In this document: positions 16,604 through 60,122 of the stretch, in pieces
How the letters are laid out: each line of letters opens with the position of its first letter
Position numbering within the stretch: the first letter of the stretch is position 1
Made by a program: the position numbers
NCBI RefSeq assembly: GCF_006345805.1
Contig: NC_043004.1
Span: 71,238,001-71,302,000, forward strand
Direction of reading: 5' to 3'
DNA: 64,000 nucleotides
From: Octopus sinensis
Taxonomy: Eukaryota

Positions 16604-19600
16604 CCACACACACACACACACTACATACACACACACACACACACACACATCACACACAACACACACACACACACTTGTGGCTTCATTTGGTTCTGAAACT
16701 CGCACATTTCGTAATTCCTGTAAAAATCTTTTTATTTACTTTCTTTTTGCAGGCCGTGTCTTTGTATGTTTTGTTTGTATACATATTTTTATGTGTGTGT
16801 GTGTGTTTTATGTCTGTGTGTTTGTGTGTGTGTGTCTCTATGTCTGTGTGTGTGTGTATGAATGACTGAAGGGATTATAATACTATGCATACATCGTTTT
16901 TTCTGTGTATGTATGCGCGTCTGTGTAAGAGAGAGAAGAGTGATGCCTAAGTGGCACTCTCACTCTTTCTTCTCCCTCACTCACATACGCACACACTCAC
17001 ACATACATACAAGGAGGATGTATGTCACCACAACCCTCCACTTGTCTTTCTCTCTCTCTCTCTCTCACACCACACACACAAACATCTATTTCATAGATGC
17101 TTGTTACTGTATGTATATGTATCTGTGTGTGTGTGTGTTGTGTGTGTGTGTGTTTGTGTGTGTTTGTGTGTGCGTGTGTGTACCTGCGGTGCATGCGTGT
17201 GGCGTTTCCATAATCGCCAGAGAAAGCGAGGGAATTTTCTTTCTTGATGCTCAGGTAAAACCTTTGTAACATTGCTTCTCTCCCCAGGTAAAGCAACAAA
17301 AAAAGAATTGCAGTTGCTGTAACGTTGTCTGACTTTGCTGCCACCATTCTTCCAGAAGGACGAACAGCTCATTTCGGCTGTTTAACATACCACTGACCAC
17401 TGTTCACAGGACAGTCCAATTTGTAACATAAGCAAGATTCAGGTTCAACAAAAGTGTTGTGTCCAATGCCACCCTTAACATTTCGGATGAATGCACATGT
17501 CACATAGAGGTGCGATGCAAGCACTTGTAATACCTTACAGACATCAGAAGCAACAATAAATCTATGGGAGAAGTTACATTAGTTTTATCAGAAGACTGTG
17601 AGACAGGCATTAACATCATTCTGAGNNNNNNNNNNNNNNNNNNNNNNNNNNNNNNNNNNNNNNNNNNNNNNNNNNNNNNNNNNNNNNNNNNNNNNNNNNN
17701 NNNNNNNNNNNNNNNNNNNNNNNNNCAATTAGGTGCTTACATTTATACGTCTCTGTGTGTGTGCAATATCTGTATTTGACCAAATATTGCGTTGTTGTTT
17801 GTGAATATGTGGGAGATCCTGTTCCTCTGGCTTCCTATAATTGAGTGCGTTACAATTAACGGCAAGAATTAGTGCAAACATGTTTATGTACATATATCAG
17901 AGTTTTGTCTCTGTGTATGGATGTGTGCCTGGACGTGTATCAAAATGTATGAGTAATTCGGTCTGTATATCATATGCTGCGTTTACGGTTATGTCACCAC
18001 TGATTACCAACCTATACTTCTTCTTCTTCTTCTTCTCTTCTTCTTCTTCTTCTTCTTCTCCTCCTCCTCCTGCTTCTTCTTCTTCTTCTTCTTCTTCTTC
18101 TTCTTCTCCTCCTCCTCCTGCTTCTTCTTCTTCTTCTTCTTCTTCTTCTCCTCCTCTGCTTCTTCTTCTTTTTCTTCTTCTTCTTCTTCTTCTTCTCCTC
18201 CTCCTGCTTCTTCTTCTTTTTCTTCTTCTTCTTCTTCTTCTTCTTCTTCTTCTTCTTCTCCTCCTCCTCCTCGCCCTACTTCTCTCTTTTCTTGTGCATT
18301 TCATCCTTTCTTTTACCCGATTTCTTCATATTTTCTAATTTCTCTGTCATTTACCAGCTTTTTTATTCGTCTAAAACGATGTAAACATATCAGAAATATT
18401 AAATTTCTAAATGTCTCTGAGAGACATGAGCGGTGGTGGAGTGATAGAGTGGTTGCATACTGTCAACTTAACGTGACAGTCCCGTATGGGAATTACACCA
18501 CCGCTGTTTAGCCCTAGGAAATATAAGGACACAGAAAATGTGTCAAAGCCGACAGCAAGCGTTCGATGCTTCCTAGGGCTAAACAGTGGTGTGTAATTCC
18601 CATAGGGTACTGTCACGTTACGTTGATGTAAACATATCTGCTGATATAATTATCAACGTCTTTGTCCATGTCCTCATCACCGACATCAAACTTATTCAAC
18701 TGTTATCTTTCTCACACACAGACATCGTCAAGTTCATCAACATCATTCACCATTCCAAAATACCACCATCAGATGCAGAATCTTCAATACTATTACATTC
18801 AACTCCGACAGTAACATTCCGCCGAACATCATCATAATGAATACCTATTTCTATTTATTTACTACCCACAAGGGGCTAAACACAGCGAGGACGAACAAGG
18901 ACAGACAAACGGATTAAGTCGATTATATCGACCCCAGTGCGTTACTGGTACTTAATTTATCGACCCCGAAAGGCAAAGTCGACCTCGGCGGAATTTGAAC
19001 TCAGAACGTAACGGCAGACGAAATACGGCTACGCATTTCGCCCTGCGTGCTAACCACTCTGCCAGCTCGTTTCTGCCATATTCAACATCACCTCAGACAT
19101 GCTCATTACAAGAATAATCAACATTAATATCACACTCATCATCAGCATCATAACATCTTCATCATCAATACTACCGTATATTCTTCTCCACTTCCCCATC
19201 ATCATATTCATCACATCCTCTACCATGAAATCCACTACTACCTACACTGCTATCAGCATTATCCAATCTTCCTTCCCCTTCTTATCATCATCATCGTCTT
19301 CACTATCTTCATCGTCGTCATCATCTTCATGGAATTAACCGTAATCTTGTTCTACGTTTTATCCACCTCATCAATTGATTGTTTAGCGAAGACTCTGTCA
19401 CAGTTATTATCTATACATTTTCTTATCAACCCAATTTTATGTTGCAGATACTTGAGTGACAATAACATCAAGCATATCCAGGCAGACACCTTCCGGAATC
19501 TGTCCCTTTTAACCGACCTGTAAGTTAAATCAGTTTTCATTTTTAGTATTGCATTGACGATATATATCTAAATTTGTTATATATTGCCATTCTTGATTGT

Positions 19601-21246
19601 AAGCATCCTTACCCGTCTTTTCAAAGATGTGATTTGTTTCTTGTGAATTTGCGTTTGTTAGTGTTTGGGCATTTATAAGATATGGGCTGTACGAAAAGGG
19701 AGTCGTTTGGTTCTTGCATTCTTATGTGTATGTATAAAATCAGTCTTTGACCAAAGTGTGCATTATTTGTGAATATGTGTGAGGGGTCTATTCCTCAGGC
19801 TTCGTATAAATAAATGCGTGACAGTTAACGGTAACATAGTGCTAACATGTTTATGTACATATATCAGATTTTTGTCTCGGTGTATGGATGTGTGACTTTG
19901 AGTGTGTCGAAATGTACGTGTAATTCGCCCTGTATATCATGTACGGTGTTTACGTCTACATCACCAATTATTACAACCTATTCTTCTTCTTCTTCTTCTT
20001 CTTCTTCTCCTTCTTCTTCTTCTTCTTCTTCTTCTTCTTCTTCTTCTTCTTTTCTTCTTCTTCTTTCTTCTTCTTCTTCTTCTTCTTCTTCTTCTTCTCC
20101 TTCTTCTTCTTCTTCTTCTTCTTCTTCTTCTTCTCGTTGTTCTATTTGTACTTCTTTTATTCATGGAAGACTCCTTCTGTAAATATTCTATTTTTCCTTC
20201 TTTCCGTTTTCTTTGTTCTTTCTCTTTATTTTTTTGTTCTTCTTCAGAAGTTTTCGCCGTTACACCTTTTTCTATGTCTTAACTATTACCGCATCTTCTT
20301 CAATATCATATTCTTCTTCATCATCATATTCGCCATCATCATAGTTATGTTAATCCACATCAACATCAGAGTAATCAACTCCACCCCCATCATCAGCATG
20401 ATAACATCTGCCTCATCACTGCTACCATATAATTTCCACTGCCTCATCATCATATTCATCACTTCCTCTACAACAAAATCTCCTACTTCCTACACTACTA
20501 CCACCATTATCGAATCTTCCTCCTCCTCCACCTCCACCGTCTCCTCCTTATCACCACTTTCATCATCATCACCTTCACAGTCATAATTGTCACCATTATC
20601 TACATGGAATTAATCATCATCATTTTCTACTTTCCGTCCATCTCATCAATTAATTGTTTAGCAAACATCCGTCACAAATATGTTCTCTACATTGTCTTAT
20701 TAACTCAATTTTATGTTGCAGATACCTGAGTCATAATAATATCAAGGAAATCCAATCAGACACCTTCCAAAATCTGTCCAGTTTGAGAGAACTGTAAGTT
20801 GAACCAATTTCCTTTCTTAGTATTTCATTGACGATAATTTTATAAATCTGAAATACCCTGCCATCCTTCATTCTAAGCACGCTCGCCCGTCTTTCTAAAG
20901 ATGTGTTTTATTGATTGTGTGTCTGCGTTTGCTAGGGTGTGCCCATTTACTTGATATGGGGAATACGAGAGGTTGATAGATAATGGGAACGATATGGTGC
21001 TTGCATTCTTATGTCTGTGTGTAAATCTAAAATTTCTCTTTGAACAAAATATGTGTTGTTGTTCAGGCTTCATATGGGTGCGTGATAATAAACGGGAATA
21101 ATTAGTGCAAACATGTTTATGTGCAGATATCAGCATTTTGCCTCTGTGTAAGGTTGTGCCAGCGAATCTATCAATATGTATCTGAAATTCGGCCTGTACA
21201 CCATGTGCGGTGTTTACATCTATATCACCACTGATGCCAACCTATA

Positions 21247-21277
<31 letters not shown>

Positions 21278-58224: not shown

Positions 58225-58255
<31 letters not shown>

Positions 58256-60122
58256 CGTCATCGTCATCATCGTCATCATCATCATCGTCATCATCATCAT
58301 CATCGTCATCATTATCATCATCCTCATCGCCAACGTTAACATCCCCACTTACATCATAATCAATATCATATTCAGAATCATCATGGACGTGCTAATCCTC
58401 TTCATTATGAGAATAATCTACATTAACAAAATCCATCCTATCGTCATCTTTTAAAGATATTCGTCGTCATCGTTACAAACCATTTACTCTTCTCTGTTTC
58501 ATCAACTTATTCATCACTATCACATTGTCCACTACTATCGGGAAAATTGACCTCGTCTTCATCTTCATTACAATCATTAACATCAACATCATCTTCGGTG
58601 CTAAGAGACTTTATGGAATTAAATATCAACATTCCACATCTACATTCCACATCCGGCATCATTGTTTCGCCAGTCTTTCGTCACAAATATATTCTTTACA
58701 ATTCCTTCTTAACCCAATATTGTTTTCCAGATTATTGGCCTCTAATGACATGAAGGAAATCAAAGCAGATACCTTCCGAAATCTGTCTAGTTTAACAAAT
58801 CTGTAAGTTTAATAATTCTTTCTTATACTATTTCGTTGACAATATATTACTAAATCTGTACTAATTTTCCATCCTTGAATTGAAGCTCCCTCTCTTGTGT
58901 TTCCGAAGATGTGTCATTGTTTTCGAATATGTGTGTCTCAGAGTGTATTCCCATTACTTAATTATATTGTATGTGAGAGCGATATAGTTCCGAAGAACAA
59001 GTTAGTGTACGCTTGTGTGTGAGTTCGTGTATGTGTAAAGTCTCTCTCTAGTCAAAGTGTGTCATTTTCTATATTAATATCACTGAGAACCTTTTCCGCA
59101 GAAAACAAATATTTGAAATTGTGACATTTGAGCAAACAAATCTGTGCGATGATGACGTCTCTATCACCATTGATTACCATCATAAAATTGACTTCTTATC
59201 CTTATTGTAACATTTGTTGTTGTTGTTGCACTCATCGTCGTTGTTTCTGTTGATGTTGTTGTTGTTTTACTTCCTTCTTCATGTTCTTGTTCTTGTTCTT
59301 GTTCTTCTTGCTCTTCTTCTTCTTCTTCTTCTTCTTCTTATCATCATTCATCATTTTCTGGTCTTTCTATTTCTTCTTTTTCTCCATATTTTGCGCCAAT
59401 ATCATTTTTTATTCAACCTTTTCTTATTATTCTTCATATCTTCTTCACATTTCTATTTTACTAATTCGTCTTCCCCCTTCTCCCCCTTTTACTTCTGTTC
59501 GACATTTTGATTTTCTACTCTCGACCTTCGTCCCTCCTCCCTCTTTCTCAGTTCCTTTCTATTCTCCAAACGCTTCAATTTTTCTCCGAACACTTTTTCT
59601 CTTTATTCATTCCGTTGTCACAAATTTCAAATAAAATTTCCATTCCTCTTTTATATTTTCATTTCTTCATGATCACTATCTATATATTCAATATCATTAT
59701 CATTAATATTATCAGTATCACAATATTAGACCCAAATACTATAGCGTCTAAATTATCATCATCGTGCTACTCATCATGTTCTTATTCTTCCAGCAAGTAT
59801 TCGTTTAATCATAATATTTTTTATTATACAACACTTCTATAATTTCACATATGAAAATATATTTTATATTACAGATATTTGCAAAATAATAATATCGAAA
59901 CAATTGAAGTAGGAGCTTTCCCAGACCTGCCCAGTTTAAGATCTCTGTAAGTTGGATAAATGATTTGAACACTTTTATGTTATTGGAAAACCTATATAAA
60001 TTAGCTGAAGATTACTCAACATCTTAAATCTGCTGTAATATTTACAGTTTTTAATAAAATGTTGTAGTATGAAACAATTGTACTAAATTACCGGATTCAT
60101 TCTTGTTGCTCATTTTTTATTA

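What the first reader, a model, noticed from the sequence alone, without database searches (positions are those of the whole stretch)
19448..59946. Array of 18 interchangeable single-LRR exons: candidate modular, variable LRR receptor in a cephalopod
Seen in the sequence: 18 exons, all exactly 72 nt, all phase 2-2 with YAG/GTAAGT, none with a stop or indel, making up only ~3% of 40.5 kb. Every exon ends CT (one ends AT) and starts A or G, so any junction gives Leu, Ile or Met and any subset stays in frame. The intron interrupts the LxxL|xLxxN beta-strand, so skipping exons would create new concave-surface combinations. Established knowledge: one 72-nt phase-2 exon per LRR also occurs in ordinary genes (LGR/RXFP/GRL101-type GPCRs, Slit). 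Cassette-based diversification is known from lamprey VLRs (gene conversion), arthropod Dscam (splicing) and brown-algal LRR-ROCO genes (exon shuffling). Inference: the high similarity between copies indicates recent lineage-specific amplification, consistent with an immune or sensory receptor diversified by exon copy number, shuffling or alternative splicing. The sequence alone does not show that isoforms differ.
Basis: partly seen in the sequence, partly recalled or inferred. Interest (0 to 1): 0.9.

Follow-up and report, generated by a model that had tools for sequence, protein, structure and literature searches.

The report
Octopus-type receptor gene's LRR exon array
The 18 small exons are real and each encodes one leucine-rich repeat of a large cell-surface receptor gene, most likely from an octopus-specific adhesion-receptor family, but nothing shows that the exons are mixed and matched, so this is an interesting yet essentially ordinary gene.

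Summary
There are 18 plus-strand exons of exactly 72 nt. All have CAG|exon|GTAAGT, are phase 2-2 and are open in frame, and each encodes one 24-residue typical LRR. A profile search finds no further copy in the window.

Three points are new:
- From E5 onward the exons follow a three-exon order, A-B-C, repeated about 4.7 times. The introns were copied too and are now only 65-76% identical.
- The duplications are old (dS 0.22-0.66), and the exons are under purifying selection (pooled dN/dS 0.33-0.59).
- A single-repeat profile searched against 1.84 billion proteins ranks an Octopus protein first. Its relatives share a signal peptide and LRRNT. They continue into GPS and 7tm_2 domains and are named "adhesion G-protein coupled receptor G6-like".

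The window holds neither the 5' exon nor the post-LRR exons. An adhesion GPCR is therefore inferred, not shown.

No docking or selector complementarity was found, and the splice sites are uniformly strong. In-frame exon symmetry is generic to such genes. Alternative splicing was not testable here.

Verdict: a new member of a known kind, of moderate interest.

The parts
19448..19519 (+). E1, single-LRR exon (early, untyped)
   Evidence: LRR_8 E 5.3e-4
20722..20793 (+). E2, single-LRR exon. The E1 and E2 units are a ~1.25-kb tandem pair (19131-20119 vs 20382-21382, 74%).
21748..21819 (+). E3, single-LRR exon, the only one ending in AT
28910..28981 (+). E4, single-LRR exon. It follows the 7090-nt intron that carries a Penelope-like element.
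30016..30087 (+). E5, type A exon, unit 1
31052..31123 (+). E6, type B exon, unit 1
32085..32156 (+). E7, type C exon, unit 1
34793..34864 (+). E8, type A exon, unit 2
36513..36584 (+). E9, type B exon, unit 2
37841..37912 (+). E10, type C exon, unit 2
40068..40139 (+). E11, type A exon, unit 3
43426..43497 (+). E12, type B exon, unit 3
46599..46670 (+). E13, type C exon, unit 3
52602..52673 (+). E14, type A exon, unit 4. It follows the 5931-nt intron that carries a second Penelope-like fragment.
54369..54440 (+). E15, type B exon, unit 4
55956..56027 (+). E16, type C exon, unit 4
58731..58802 (+). E17, type A exon, unit 5
59875..59946 (+). E18, type B exon, unit 5. No type C exon follows in the remaining 4054 nt.
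30016..59946 (+). Higher-order array: the three-exon unit A-B-C repeated 4 and 2/3 times, with introns co-duplicated
   Evidence: Within-type exon identity is 54-67 of 72 nt, against 34-49 of 72 between type B and the rest. Intron alignments between units include 33621-35601 vs 38965-40770 at 72.8% and 36942-38552 vs 45715-47291 at 74.1%. Units 2 and 3 are the closest for all three exon types.
17754..18191 (+). Copy of the intron segment that lies downstream of E1 and E2. It implies that a further unit (an exon 'E0') would fall in or beyond the assembly gap at 17626-17725. The gap was not filled.
   Evidence: 81% identity to 19725-20156 and to 21057-21382. The N run is listed.

Best explanation
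The span is the middle of one large gene on the + strand. It encodes at least 18 consecutive 24-residue 'typical' LRRs, one per 72-nt phase-2 exon, which form the ligand-binding solenoid of an extracellular receptor domain.

The gene most likely belongs to the octopus-lineage family with this architecture: signal peptide, LRRNT, a variable number of LRRs, a Cys-rich cap, a spacer domain, a hormone-receptor-like module, GAIN/GPS and a class-B 7TM. That makes it an LRR-bearing adhesion GPCR.

The array grew by unequal crossing-over. Single-exon units were duplicated first (E1/E2, E3/E4). A three-exon unit (types A-B-C), introns included, was then tandemly duplicated. These events are old, and purifying selection has since kept the exons and their splice signals while the introns decayed and took up transposons.

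The default expectation is constitutive splicing of all exons into one long horseshoe. Differences in LRR number arise between paralogues over evolutionary time, not somatically.

Shown: the exon structure, the periodicity, the co-duplicated introns, the selection and the nearest relatives. Inferred: the rest of the gene (caps, GAIN, 7TM), expression and the splicing pattern.
For: Structure and higher-order repeat.

Selection:
- Pooled within-type dN/dS is 0.34 (A), 0.33 (B), 0.59 (C) and 0.41 (E1-E4), with dS of 0.44, 0.38, 0.22 and 0.66.
- Exon mismatch is 13.8%, against 21.4% mismatch plus 68 gap openings per kb in the +/-300-nt flanks.
- The last 40 intron nt before each exon are kept at 80-87%, against mostly 0.3-0.6 deeper in the intron.
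- There is no stop in 18 x 23 codons.

Secretory-type features: 12 of 18 exons carry an N-x-S/T sequon.

Family:
- The repeat profile A2 gave 3178 hits at E <= 1e-3 among 1.84e9 representatives. P0121 was top at 256.6 bits over 10 stretches.
- The best per-repeat scores were P0196 40.4 bits, P0121 32.9, P0271 30.5 and P0272 29.3.
- P0121 is named 'leucine-rich repeat-containing protein 15-like [Octopus sinensis]'. Its relatives include P0308 'adhesion G-protein coupled receptor G6-like [Octopus vulgaris]', which has LRRNT + LRR_8 + 7tm_2 in one protein.
- P0121 residues 388-458 match the start of P0329 (which carries GPS, E 8.6e-14) at 87% and of P0385 (7tm_2, E 2.1e-16) at 73%.
- P0196 and P0308 are 60% identical over 133 aa, with a nearly identical signal peptide and LRRNT.
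- The first 32 residues of the P0272 model match translated intron 3' ends directly upstream of window exons E4, E5, E1, E10, E8, E2 and E7 (E 1.2e-4 to 9e-3), and more weakly E14 and E11. This points to the same gene architecture and DNA-level kinship.

Literature: an octopus-specific adhesion-GPCR expansion with LRRs in 5 of 22 sequences (PMC6408891, passages).
Against: - No signal-peptide/LRRNT exon, LRRCT-like cap, GAIN/GPS or 7TM exon is detectable in the window. The best tblastn E-value outside the LRR exons was 0.083, on the opposite strand inside a transposon. No Cys-motif candidates were found. Of 48 HSPs from the 150 best hits, 47 lay on the known exons. Family membership therefore rests on LRR and intron similarity alone.
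- LRRs converge easily and 23-residue repeats carry little signal. The best outside repeat is 18 of 23 identical.
- The window's own product was not found in the 5.8-billion-protein set (weak evidence).
- Some family members in the database are LRR-only models (P0121, P0272), so a 7TM-less paralogue is possible.
- Transcription and splicing are unobserved.
- Type C dN/dS is 0.59, and concave positions vary more than other variable positions (0.43 vs 0.25 differences per pair, permutation p = 0.049). This leaves room for some diversifying pressure.
Confidence: 0.6

Rival explanations
1. The gene encodes an LRR-only secreted or single-pass membrane protein (LRRC15-, Slit- or SLITRK-like, as NCBI names several relatives). 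It would be a paralogue of the adhesion-GPCR family that lacks GAIN/7TM and acts as a soluble binder or adhesion molecule.
For: The best-scoring relatives P0121, P0272, P0273 and P0209 show only LRR-class domains (plus LRRNT in P0121) in Pfam, and they carry such names. No 7TM exon lies in the window.
Against: Those models look truncated. P0121 ends inside a region that continues in P0329, P0385 and P0297 (87%, 73% and 99% identity). P0272 starts in a translated intron. P0308 joins the same signal peptide and LRRNT to 7tm_2.
Confidence: 0.2
2. One reading: the array is a substrate for combinatorial exon skipping (or somatic shuffling) that yields many LRR ectodomain variants of an immune or sensory receptor.
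For: All exons are symmetric phase 2-2 and any junction gives Leu, Ile or Met. Concave-face positions vary somewhat more between paralogous repeats. LRR matches differ among family members. One O. sinensis relative is annotated as 'isoform X4'. Brown-algal genes with the same 72-nt phase-2 LRR exons are reported to have multiple splice variants (PMC11378527 passages).
Against: Phase symmetry is generic to one-LRR-per-exon genes. All 18 of 18 exons have consensus CAG and GTAAGT and conserved branch-point/polypyrimidine regions; weaker sites in regulated cassette exons are general knowledge, recalled rather than tested. No shared complementary docking or selector element was found. All exons lie on one strand in a regular order, unlike VLR cassettes. 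Overall dN/dS is below 1. No expression data could be examined.
Confidence: 0.1
3. It is the ectodomain of a rhodopsin-class LRR GPCR (LGR, relaxin-receptor or GRL101 type), or of a Slit orthologue, with the ancestral one-exon-per-LRR structure.
For: The exon size, phase and split position match those described for gonadotropin-receptor LRR exons (passage in PMC11378527). At least 18 consecutive LRRs is close to type-B LGRs (recalled, not tested).
Against: The nearest relatives link to 7tm_2 and GPS, not 7tm_1. The repeats are 75-93% identical to each other within types, which is not expected for an ancient one-to-one orthologue whose repeats diverged long ago. No LDLa-like Cys pattern is present in the window. 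Slit has caps between short LRR blocks (recalled), and none occurs among the 18 exons.
Confidence: 0.05
4. It is a decaying, untranscribed exon array (a pseudogene remnant).
For: No start or end of the gene lies in the window. Transposons fill the introns. No database protein matches the exons exactly.
Against: The exons have no stop or length change in 1296 nt, while the flanking introns show 68 gap openings per kb. dN/dS is 0.33-0.59. Splice signals are conserved.
Confidence: 0.05

Closest known systems
Octopus-specific adhesion GPCR expansion ('group 3' of Ritschard et al. 2019, PMC6408891; NCBI models named 'adhesion G-protein coupled receptor G6-like' in Octopus vulgaris)
   Same: Its LRRs are the best matches to the window's repeats among 1.84e9 proteins. 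The 5' end of one model (P0272) is a translated intron homologous to the window's introns. The number of LRR matches varies between members.
   Different: Here at least 18 LRRs carry a gene-specific A-B-C amplification. Every window repeat is closer to another window repeat (15-21 of 23 identical) than to any repeat of the 9 relatives compared (13-18 of 23), except E3 and E4, whose best match is P0196. GAIN/GPS/7TM were not seen in the window. The paper (passages read) does not describe the exon structure.
Glycoprotein-hormone receptor / LGR-type LRR exons
   Same: One LRR per exon of about 72 nt, all introns in phase 2 (passage citing Koo et al. 1991 in PMC11378527). Splice variants of human LGR5, including LGR5-delta-5, are reported (listing and abstracts).
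   Different: Those receptors are rhodopsin-class and their repeats are ancient and mutually divergent. Here the repeats are young enough for the introns still to align, and the relatives are class B.
Brown-algal LRR-ROCO genes
   Same: 72-bp phase-2 exons, each encoding 23 residues plus a split codon. Exon duplication or shuffling, and more variable concave-face sites (PMC11378527 passages).
   Different: Those are cytoplasmic ROC-COR GTPases of a different kingdom. Splice variants are reported there, whereas none could be tested here.
Lamprey VLR and arthropod Dscam (recalled from general knowledge; VLR also from passages in PMC13428168)
   Same: Modular repeats (LRR or Ig) present in many similar genomic copies.
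   Different: VLR cassettes are assembled somatically by gene conversion and are not ordinary spliced exons. Dscam clusters are mutually exclusive and use docking/selector RNA pairing. Here there are canonical splice sites on every copy, one orientation, and no complementary element.

Membership tests
Typical-type extracellular LRR solenoid | 24-residue repeat LxxLxLxxNxIxxIxxxxFxxLxx | tested here: met
   L2, N5 and L21 are invariant and I10 and L18 nearly so in 18 of 18 exons. LRR_8 hits at E 1.3e-4 to 4.2e-3 for the 5 of 5 single exons tested, below the gathering score. The profile retrieves LRR_8-rich proteins.
Typical-type extracellular LRR solenoid | Cys-rich LRRNT and LRRCT caps | tested here: inconclusive
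   None found in the window by motif scan or by tblastn with relatives' caps. The gene runs past both ends of the array, and there is an assembly gap at 17626-17725.
Octopus LRR-bearing adhesion GPCR family | LRRs and gene architecture closest to family members | tested here: met
   P0121 was the top of 3178 hits. Per-repeat scores favour P0196, P0121, P0271 and P0272. There is intron-level similarity to the 5' read-through of P0272.
Octopus LRR-bearing adhesion GPCR family | Conserved signal peptide + LRRNT first exon | tested here: inconclusive
   The N-terminal 62 residues of 5 family members give no credible tblastn hit in the window (best E 0.083, wrong strand). The exon may lie in the gap or upstream of the window.
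Octopus LRR-bearing adhesion GPCR family | GAIN/GPS autoproteolysis domain and class-B 7TM (7tm_2) | tested here: inconclusive
   Present in relatives P0329, P0385 and P0308. No match in the window, which ends 4054 nt after E18.
LGR / RXFP / GRL101-type GPCR | One 72-nt phase-2 exon per LRR | tested here: met
   The feature is shared with other families, so it is not diagnostic.
LGR / RXFP / GRL101-type GPCR | Rhodopsin-type 7TM (7tm_1), LDLa modules | tested here: inconclusive
   No LDLa-like Cys pattern in the window other than TG-microsatellite translations. The nearest relatives carry 7tm_2, not 7tm_1. The window lacks the 3' part of the gene.
Lamprey VLR-type cassette system | Non-spliced donor cassettes in both orientations around an incomplete germline gene, copied in somatically | tested here: not met
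   All 18 copies are on one strand, in regular order, and each has CAG and GTAAGT. Somatic events are not testable from one assembly.
Dscam-type mutually exclusive exon cluster | Docking site complementary to a selector sequence next to each variable exon | tested here: not met
   A minus-strand blastn-short of the 80 nt on each side of every exon against the window gave only 11-17-nt AT-rich or palindromic matches and one transposon match. No shared target was found. A docking site outside the window cannot be excluded.
Brown-algal LRR-ROCO | ROC-COR GTPase domains downstream of the LRR exons | not tested
   No specific search was made. The nearest relatives are animal (Octopus) proteins.

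The most novel reading that the evidence does not exclude
The symmetric, near-identical LRR exons of this octopus adhesion-GPCR-like gene are used combinatorially. Regulated skipping of single exons or whole A-B-C units, or copy-number polymorphism through unequal crossing-over, would give ectodomains of different length and concave surface. The tissues would be suckers, skin or axial nerve cord, where the expanded octopus GPCR groups are reported to be expressed. This would be a cephalopod route to receptor diversity from a single locus.
Probability: 0.1. Interest if true: 0.7.

Novelty: new member of a known kind. Interest (0 to 1): 0.3.

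Why it matters
It gives a clean, dated example of how a lineage-specific receptor family lengthens its binding domain. 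Whole three-exon blocks were duplicated together with their introns and then held by selection.

It ties the LRR-only 'LRRC15-like', 'TLR5' and 'Slit-like' gene models in Octopus annotations to one adhesion-GPCR-type family. It also shows that at least one of those names is a truncated, intron-initiated model with no TIR domain.

If isoform or copy-number variation were found, the locus would become a tractable test of splicing-based receptor diversification in cephalopods. Without that, it is an ordinary large gene.

Tried and rejected
A contiguous 41-aa stretch (17 intron codons plus exon E8) found 4 candidates and no hit.
- Six-frame Pfam scan of the downstream flank. I replaced it with a Cys-motif scan of all six frames, which found only TG-microsatellite translations, and with tblastn using relatives, which found nothing outside the exons.
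- PDB profile search with the 23-aa repeat. It returned only chondroadherin (2 sequences) and LRRC4 (1 sequence), which is uninformative.
- ESM Atlas with P0196. It returned generic LRR clusters only.
- Rfam on the whole window. 0 matches.
- Dscam-like docking search. Negative.
- Transposon ORF as a taxon marker. It is Penelope-like (RVT_1 + GIY-YIG in the relatives). Most named relatives were bivalves at 46-62% identity, with a few other names (bivalve-symbiont bins, one sea cucumber). None was a cephalopod, so it gave no support for or against cephalopod origin.
- Congruence of unit trees. Units 2 and 3 are closest for all three exon types. Exon-only nearest pairs differ (E8-E14, E6-E18), but with 72 nt this is within noise, so I do not claim gene conversion.
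- Gap counting. A free global aligner placed 17 gap openings in exon columns (9 of 1872 positions). I regard these as edge artefacts, because all 18 exons are 72 nt and align ungapped.
- Literature. Searches found no paper describing this exon array or LRR exon duplication in octopus adhesion GPCRs. Only PMC6408891 mentions LRRs in that family.
- Not done or not possible:
There is therefore no above-threshold Pfam call and no structure for the window's own protein.
  - Supplementary tables S2 and S3 of PMC6408891 (gene lists, scaffold positions, domains) could bear on family membership but were closed.
  - The assembly gap at 17626-17725 was left as it is.

Full report
OBSERVATION

The pattern YAG + 72 nt + GTAAG occurs 19 times on the + strand and twice on the - strand. 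Eighteen of the + strand hits are LRR exons. They start at 19448, 20722, 21748, 28910, 30016, 31052, 32085, 34793, 36513, 37841, 40068, 43426, 46599, 52602, 54369, 55956, 58731 and 59875. The nineteenth hit (21878-21949) is not an LRR.

All 18 exons have CAG before and GTAAGT after, and all are open in the frame that starts at exon base 2. Seventeen end in CT and E3 ends in AT. Thirteen start with A and five with G, so any junction codon reads Leu, Ile or Met. Introns are 954-7090 nt.

An nhmmer profile built from the exons finds exactly these 18 in the window and nothing else at E <= 10. The peptides fit xLxxNxIxxIxxxxFxxLxxLxx, and the split codon is the second Leu of LxxLxLxxN. The five single exons tested hit Pfam LRR_8 at E 1.3e-4 to 4.2e-3, which is below the gathering score, as expected for 23 residues.

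From E5 onward the exons fall into three types in strict order: A (E5, 8, 11, 14, 17), B (E6, 9, 12, 15, 18) and C (E7, 10, 13, 16).
- Within types, 54-67 of 72 nt are identical. Leaving out E5, the range is 59-67.
- Type B shares only 34-49 of 72 nt with the other exons.

The introns were duplicated together with the exons. Examples:
- 33621-35601 aligns with 38965-40770 at 72.8%.
- 35947-36932 aligns with 42814-43849 at 76.4%.
- 36942-38552 aligns with 45715-47291 at 74.1%.

The array is therefore a tandem segmental duplication of a three-exon unit, present 4 and 2/3 times. It is preceded by older single-exon units; E1 and E2 form a pair at 74% over 1 kb.

Over exon plus 250-nt flanks, units 2 and 3 are the closest for all three types, with 16-22% mismatch. 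The other pairs differ by 21-40%.

A copy of the intron segment that follows E1 and E2 lies at 17754-18191, right after the assembly gap at 17626-17725. The array may therefore begin in or beyond that gap, which I left untouched. No type C exon follows E18 in the last 4054 nt.

AGE AND SELECTION

- Pooled within-type dS is 0.44 (A), 0.38 (B) and 0.22 (C), and 0.66 for E1-E4. The corresponding dN/dS values are 0.34, 0.33, 0.59 and 0.41.
- Exons differ at 13.8% of sites. The +/-300-nt flanks differ at 21.4% of aligned sites and have 68 gap openings per kb. The same aligner put 17 gap openings in exon columns. I take these as edge artefacts, since all exons are 72 nt.
- The 40 nt before each exon are kept at 80-87%, like the exons themselves (85-87%). 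Deeper intron falls mostly to 0.3-0.6.

The amplification is old rather than recent. The exons and their 3' splice regions have been held by purifying selection, which argues for a working, spliced gene.

Between paralogous repeats, the concave-face positions (x2, x3, x5, x7, x8) differ in 0.43 of pairs, other variable positions in 0.25, and core positions in 0.08 (permutation p = 0.049). This is a weak trend of a kind common in LRR proteins. Twelve of 18 exons carry an N-x-S/T sequon, which fits an extracellular protein.

IDENTITY

I aligned 18 contiguous 29-30-residue translations, each made of 5-6 intron codons, one exon and the CTg codon (alignment A2). I searched this profile against 1.84 billion representative proteins. 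It gave 3178 hits at E <= 1e-3 and 22 at E <= 1e-30.

The top hit is P0121 (461 aa, 10 matched stretches, 256.6 bits). The best single-repeat scores are P0196 at 40.4 bits, P0121 at 32.9, P0271 at 30.5 and P0272 at 29.3.

Names came:
- P0121: 'leucine-rich repeat-containing protein 15-like [Octopus sinensis]'.
- P0272: 'toll-like receptor 5 [Octopus bimaculoides]'.
- P0273: 'SLIT and NTRK-like protein 4 isoform X4 [Octopus sinensis]'.
- P0209: 'slit homolog 1 protein-like, partial [Octopus sinensis]'.
- P0308, P0329 and P0385: 'adhesion G-protein coupled receptor G6-like [Octopus vulgaris]'.

Pfam results:
- P0308 has LRRNT + LRR_8 + 7tm_2.
- P0329 has GPS.
- P0385 has 7tm_2.
- P0272 has no TIR domain.

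The pieces overlap. P0121 residues 388-458 match the first 71 residues of P0329 at 87%, of P0385 at 73% and of P0297 at 99%. P0272 residues 523-668 match P0329 residues 1-150 at 59%. P0196, P0166, P0204, P0308 and P0121 share one signal peptide and LRRNT.

Taken together, the family architecture is: signal peptide, LRRNT, a variable number of LRRs, a Cys-rich cap, a spacer domain, a hormone-receptor-like module, GAIN/GPS and a class-B 7TM.

This matches the octopus-specific adhesion-GPCR expansion of Ritschard et al. 2019 (PMC6408891; passages read). There, LRRs occur in 5 of 22 sequences. Expression of the octopus-specific groups is reported mainly in axial nerve cord, suckers and skin in O. 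bimaculoides, and in gills, skin and ovaries in C. minor.

A DNA-LEVEL LINK

The first 32 residues of the P0272 model match the translated intron 3' ends directly upstream of window exons E4, E5, E1, E10, E8, E2 and E7 (47-60% identity, E 1.2e-4 to 9e-3). They match those upstream of E14 and E11 more weakly. In two window copies that reading frame contains a stop, so it is intron, not coding sequence.

The O. bimaculoides model therefore starts inside an intron of the same architecture. This supports cephalopod (octopod) origin of the window and kinship of the two genes. It also shows that the 'TLR5' name is a misannotation of a 5'-truncated model.

The species of the window stays open. No database protein carries the window's own exon words. 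The best outside repeat is 18 of 23 identical.

LIMITS

The window contains no recognisable signal-peptide/LRRNT exon, cap, GAIN/GPS or 7TM exon.
- The Cys-motif scan gave only microsatellite translations.
- Of 48 tblastn HSPs from the 150 best hits, 47 lie on the known exons.
- Family N- and C-terminal parts give no hit better than E 0.083, and that one is on the wrong strand inside a transposon.

That the gene is an adhesion GPCR is therefore an inference from relatives.

SPLICING DIVERSITY

Phase symmetry is generic. A passage in PMC11378527 states that gonadotropin-receptor LRR introns are all phase 2, and that brown-algal ROCO LRR exons are 72 bp and phase 2. Splice variants of human LGR5, including one named LGR5-delta-5, are reported (listing and abstracts only).

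In this window all splice sites are consensus. The 80 nt on each side of each exon share no complementary target elsewhere in the window. All copies are collinear on one strand, unlike VLR cassettes.

What does vary is LRR number between paralogues. Repeat-profile matches are 2 in P0308, 10 in P0121, 11 in the truncated P0272 and at least 18 here. The A-B-C amplification is specific to this gene. For 16 of 18 window repeats the nearest repeat is another window repeat (16-21 of 23 identical) rather than a repeat of the nine relatives compared (13-17 of 23). E3 and E4 are closest to P0196.

Diversification is thus documented on the evolutionary scale. Somatic or splicing-level diversification remains untested.

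VERDICT

This is a real and neatly organised exon array. Its higher-order structure is newly described here, and its family assignment is plausible. I found no publication of this array. It is a new member of a known kind. Interest is 0.3, and the probability of the splicing- or copy-number-diversity reading is about 0.1.

Noticed in passing
window 23620-26326 (-) and 49274-50277 (-): Two fragments of a Penelope-like retroelement lie antisense inside the two longest introns (E3-E4 at 7090 nt, E13-E14 at 5931 nt). They carry an RT motif, and their relatives have RVT_1 + GIY-YIG. Most named relatives are bivalve proteins at 46-62% identity; no cephalopod was named.
   Followed up: partly
window 21861-22094, 47301-47735, 54692-55145, 62893-63107: A short interspersed repeat is present in four copies at 74-92% identity, three of them in introns of the array. 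Rfam found no match anywhere in the window.
   Followed up: no
window 21878-21949 (+): A 72-nt stretch with YAG before and GTAAG after lies inside the first copy of that interspersed repeat, 58 nt after E3. It is open in the frame that would keep phase 2-2. It is not an LRR. It is probably chance, but it is a possible exonisation site.
   Followed up: no
window 17626-17725 and 17754-18191: An assembly gap is followed directly by a copy of the intron segment that lies downstream of E1 and E2 (81% identity). The exon array may extend into the gap. The gap was not filled.
   Followed up: partly
window 16001-47999 and 52001-59999: There is strong strand asymmetry across the gene. In most 4-kb bins GC skew is -0.07 to -0.36, though it is positive at 24001-28000. 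AT skew is -0.15 to -0.25. Long pyrimidine-rich microsatellites lie on the sense strand, for example (TTC)n at 45142-45838 and (ATC)n at 57702-58328.
   Followed up: no
window 59957-60147, 61805-62243: An inverted-repeat element lies just downstream of E18. One copy starts 11 nt after E18, and 61828-62243 is a 92% self-palindrome. It may explain why the next exon is not within the window.
   Followed up: no
protein P0272 (named 'toll-like receptor 5 [Octopus bimaculoides]'): This database model has no TIR domain in Pfam. Its first 32 residues are translated intron. Its C-terminal half matches adhesion-GPCR-like Octopus proteins. The name and the 5' end of the model appear to be wrong.
   Followed up: yes
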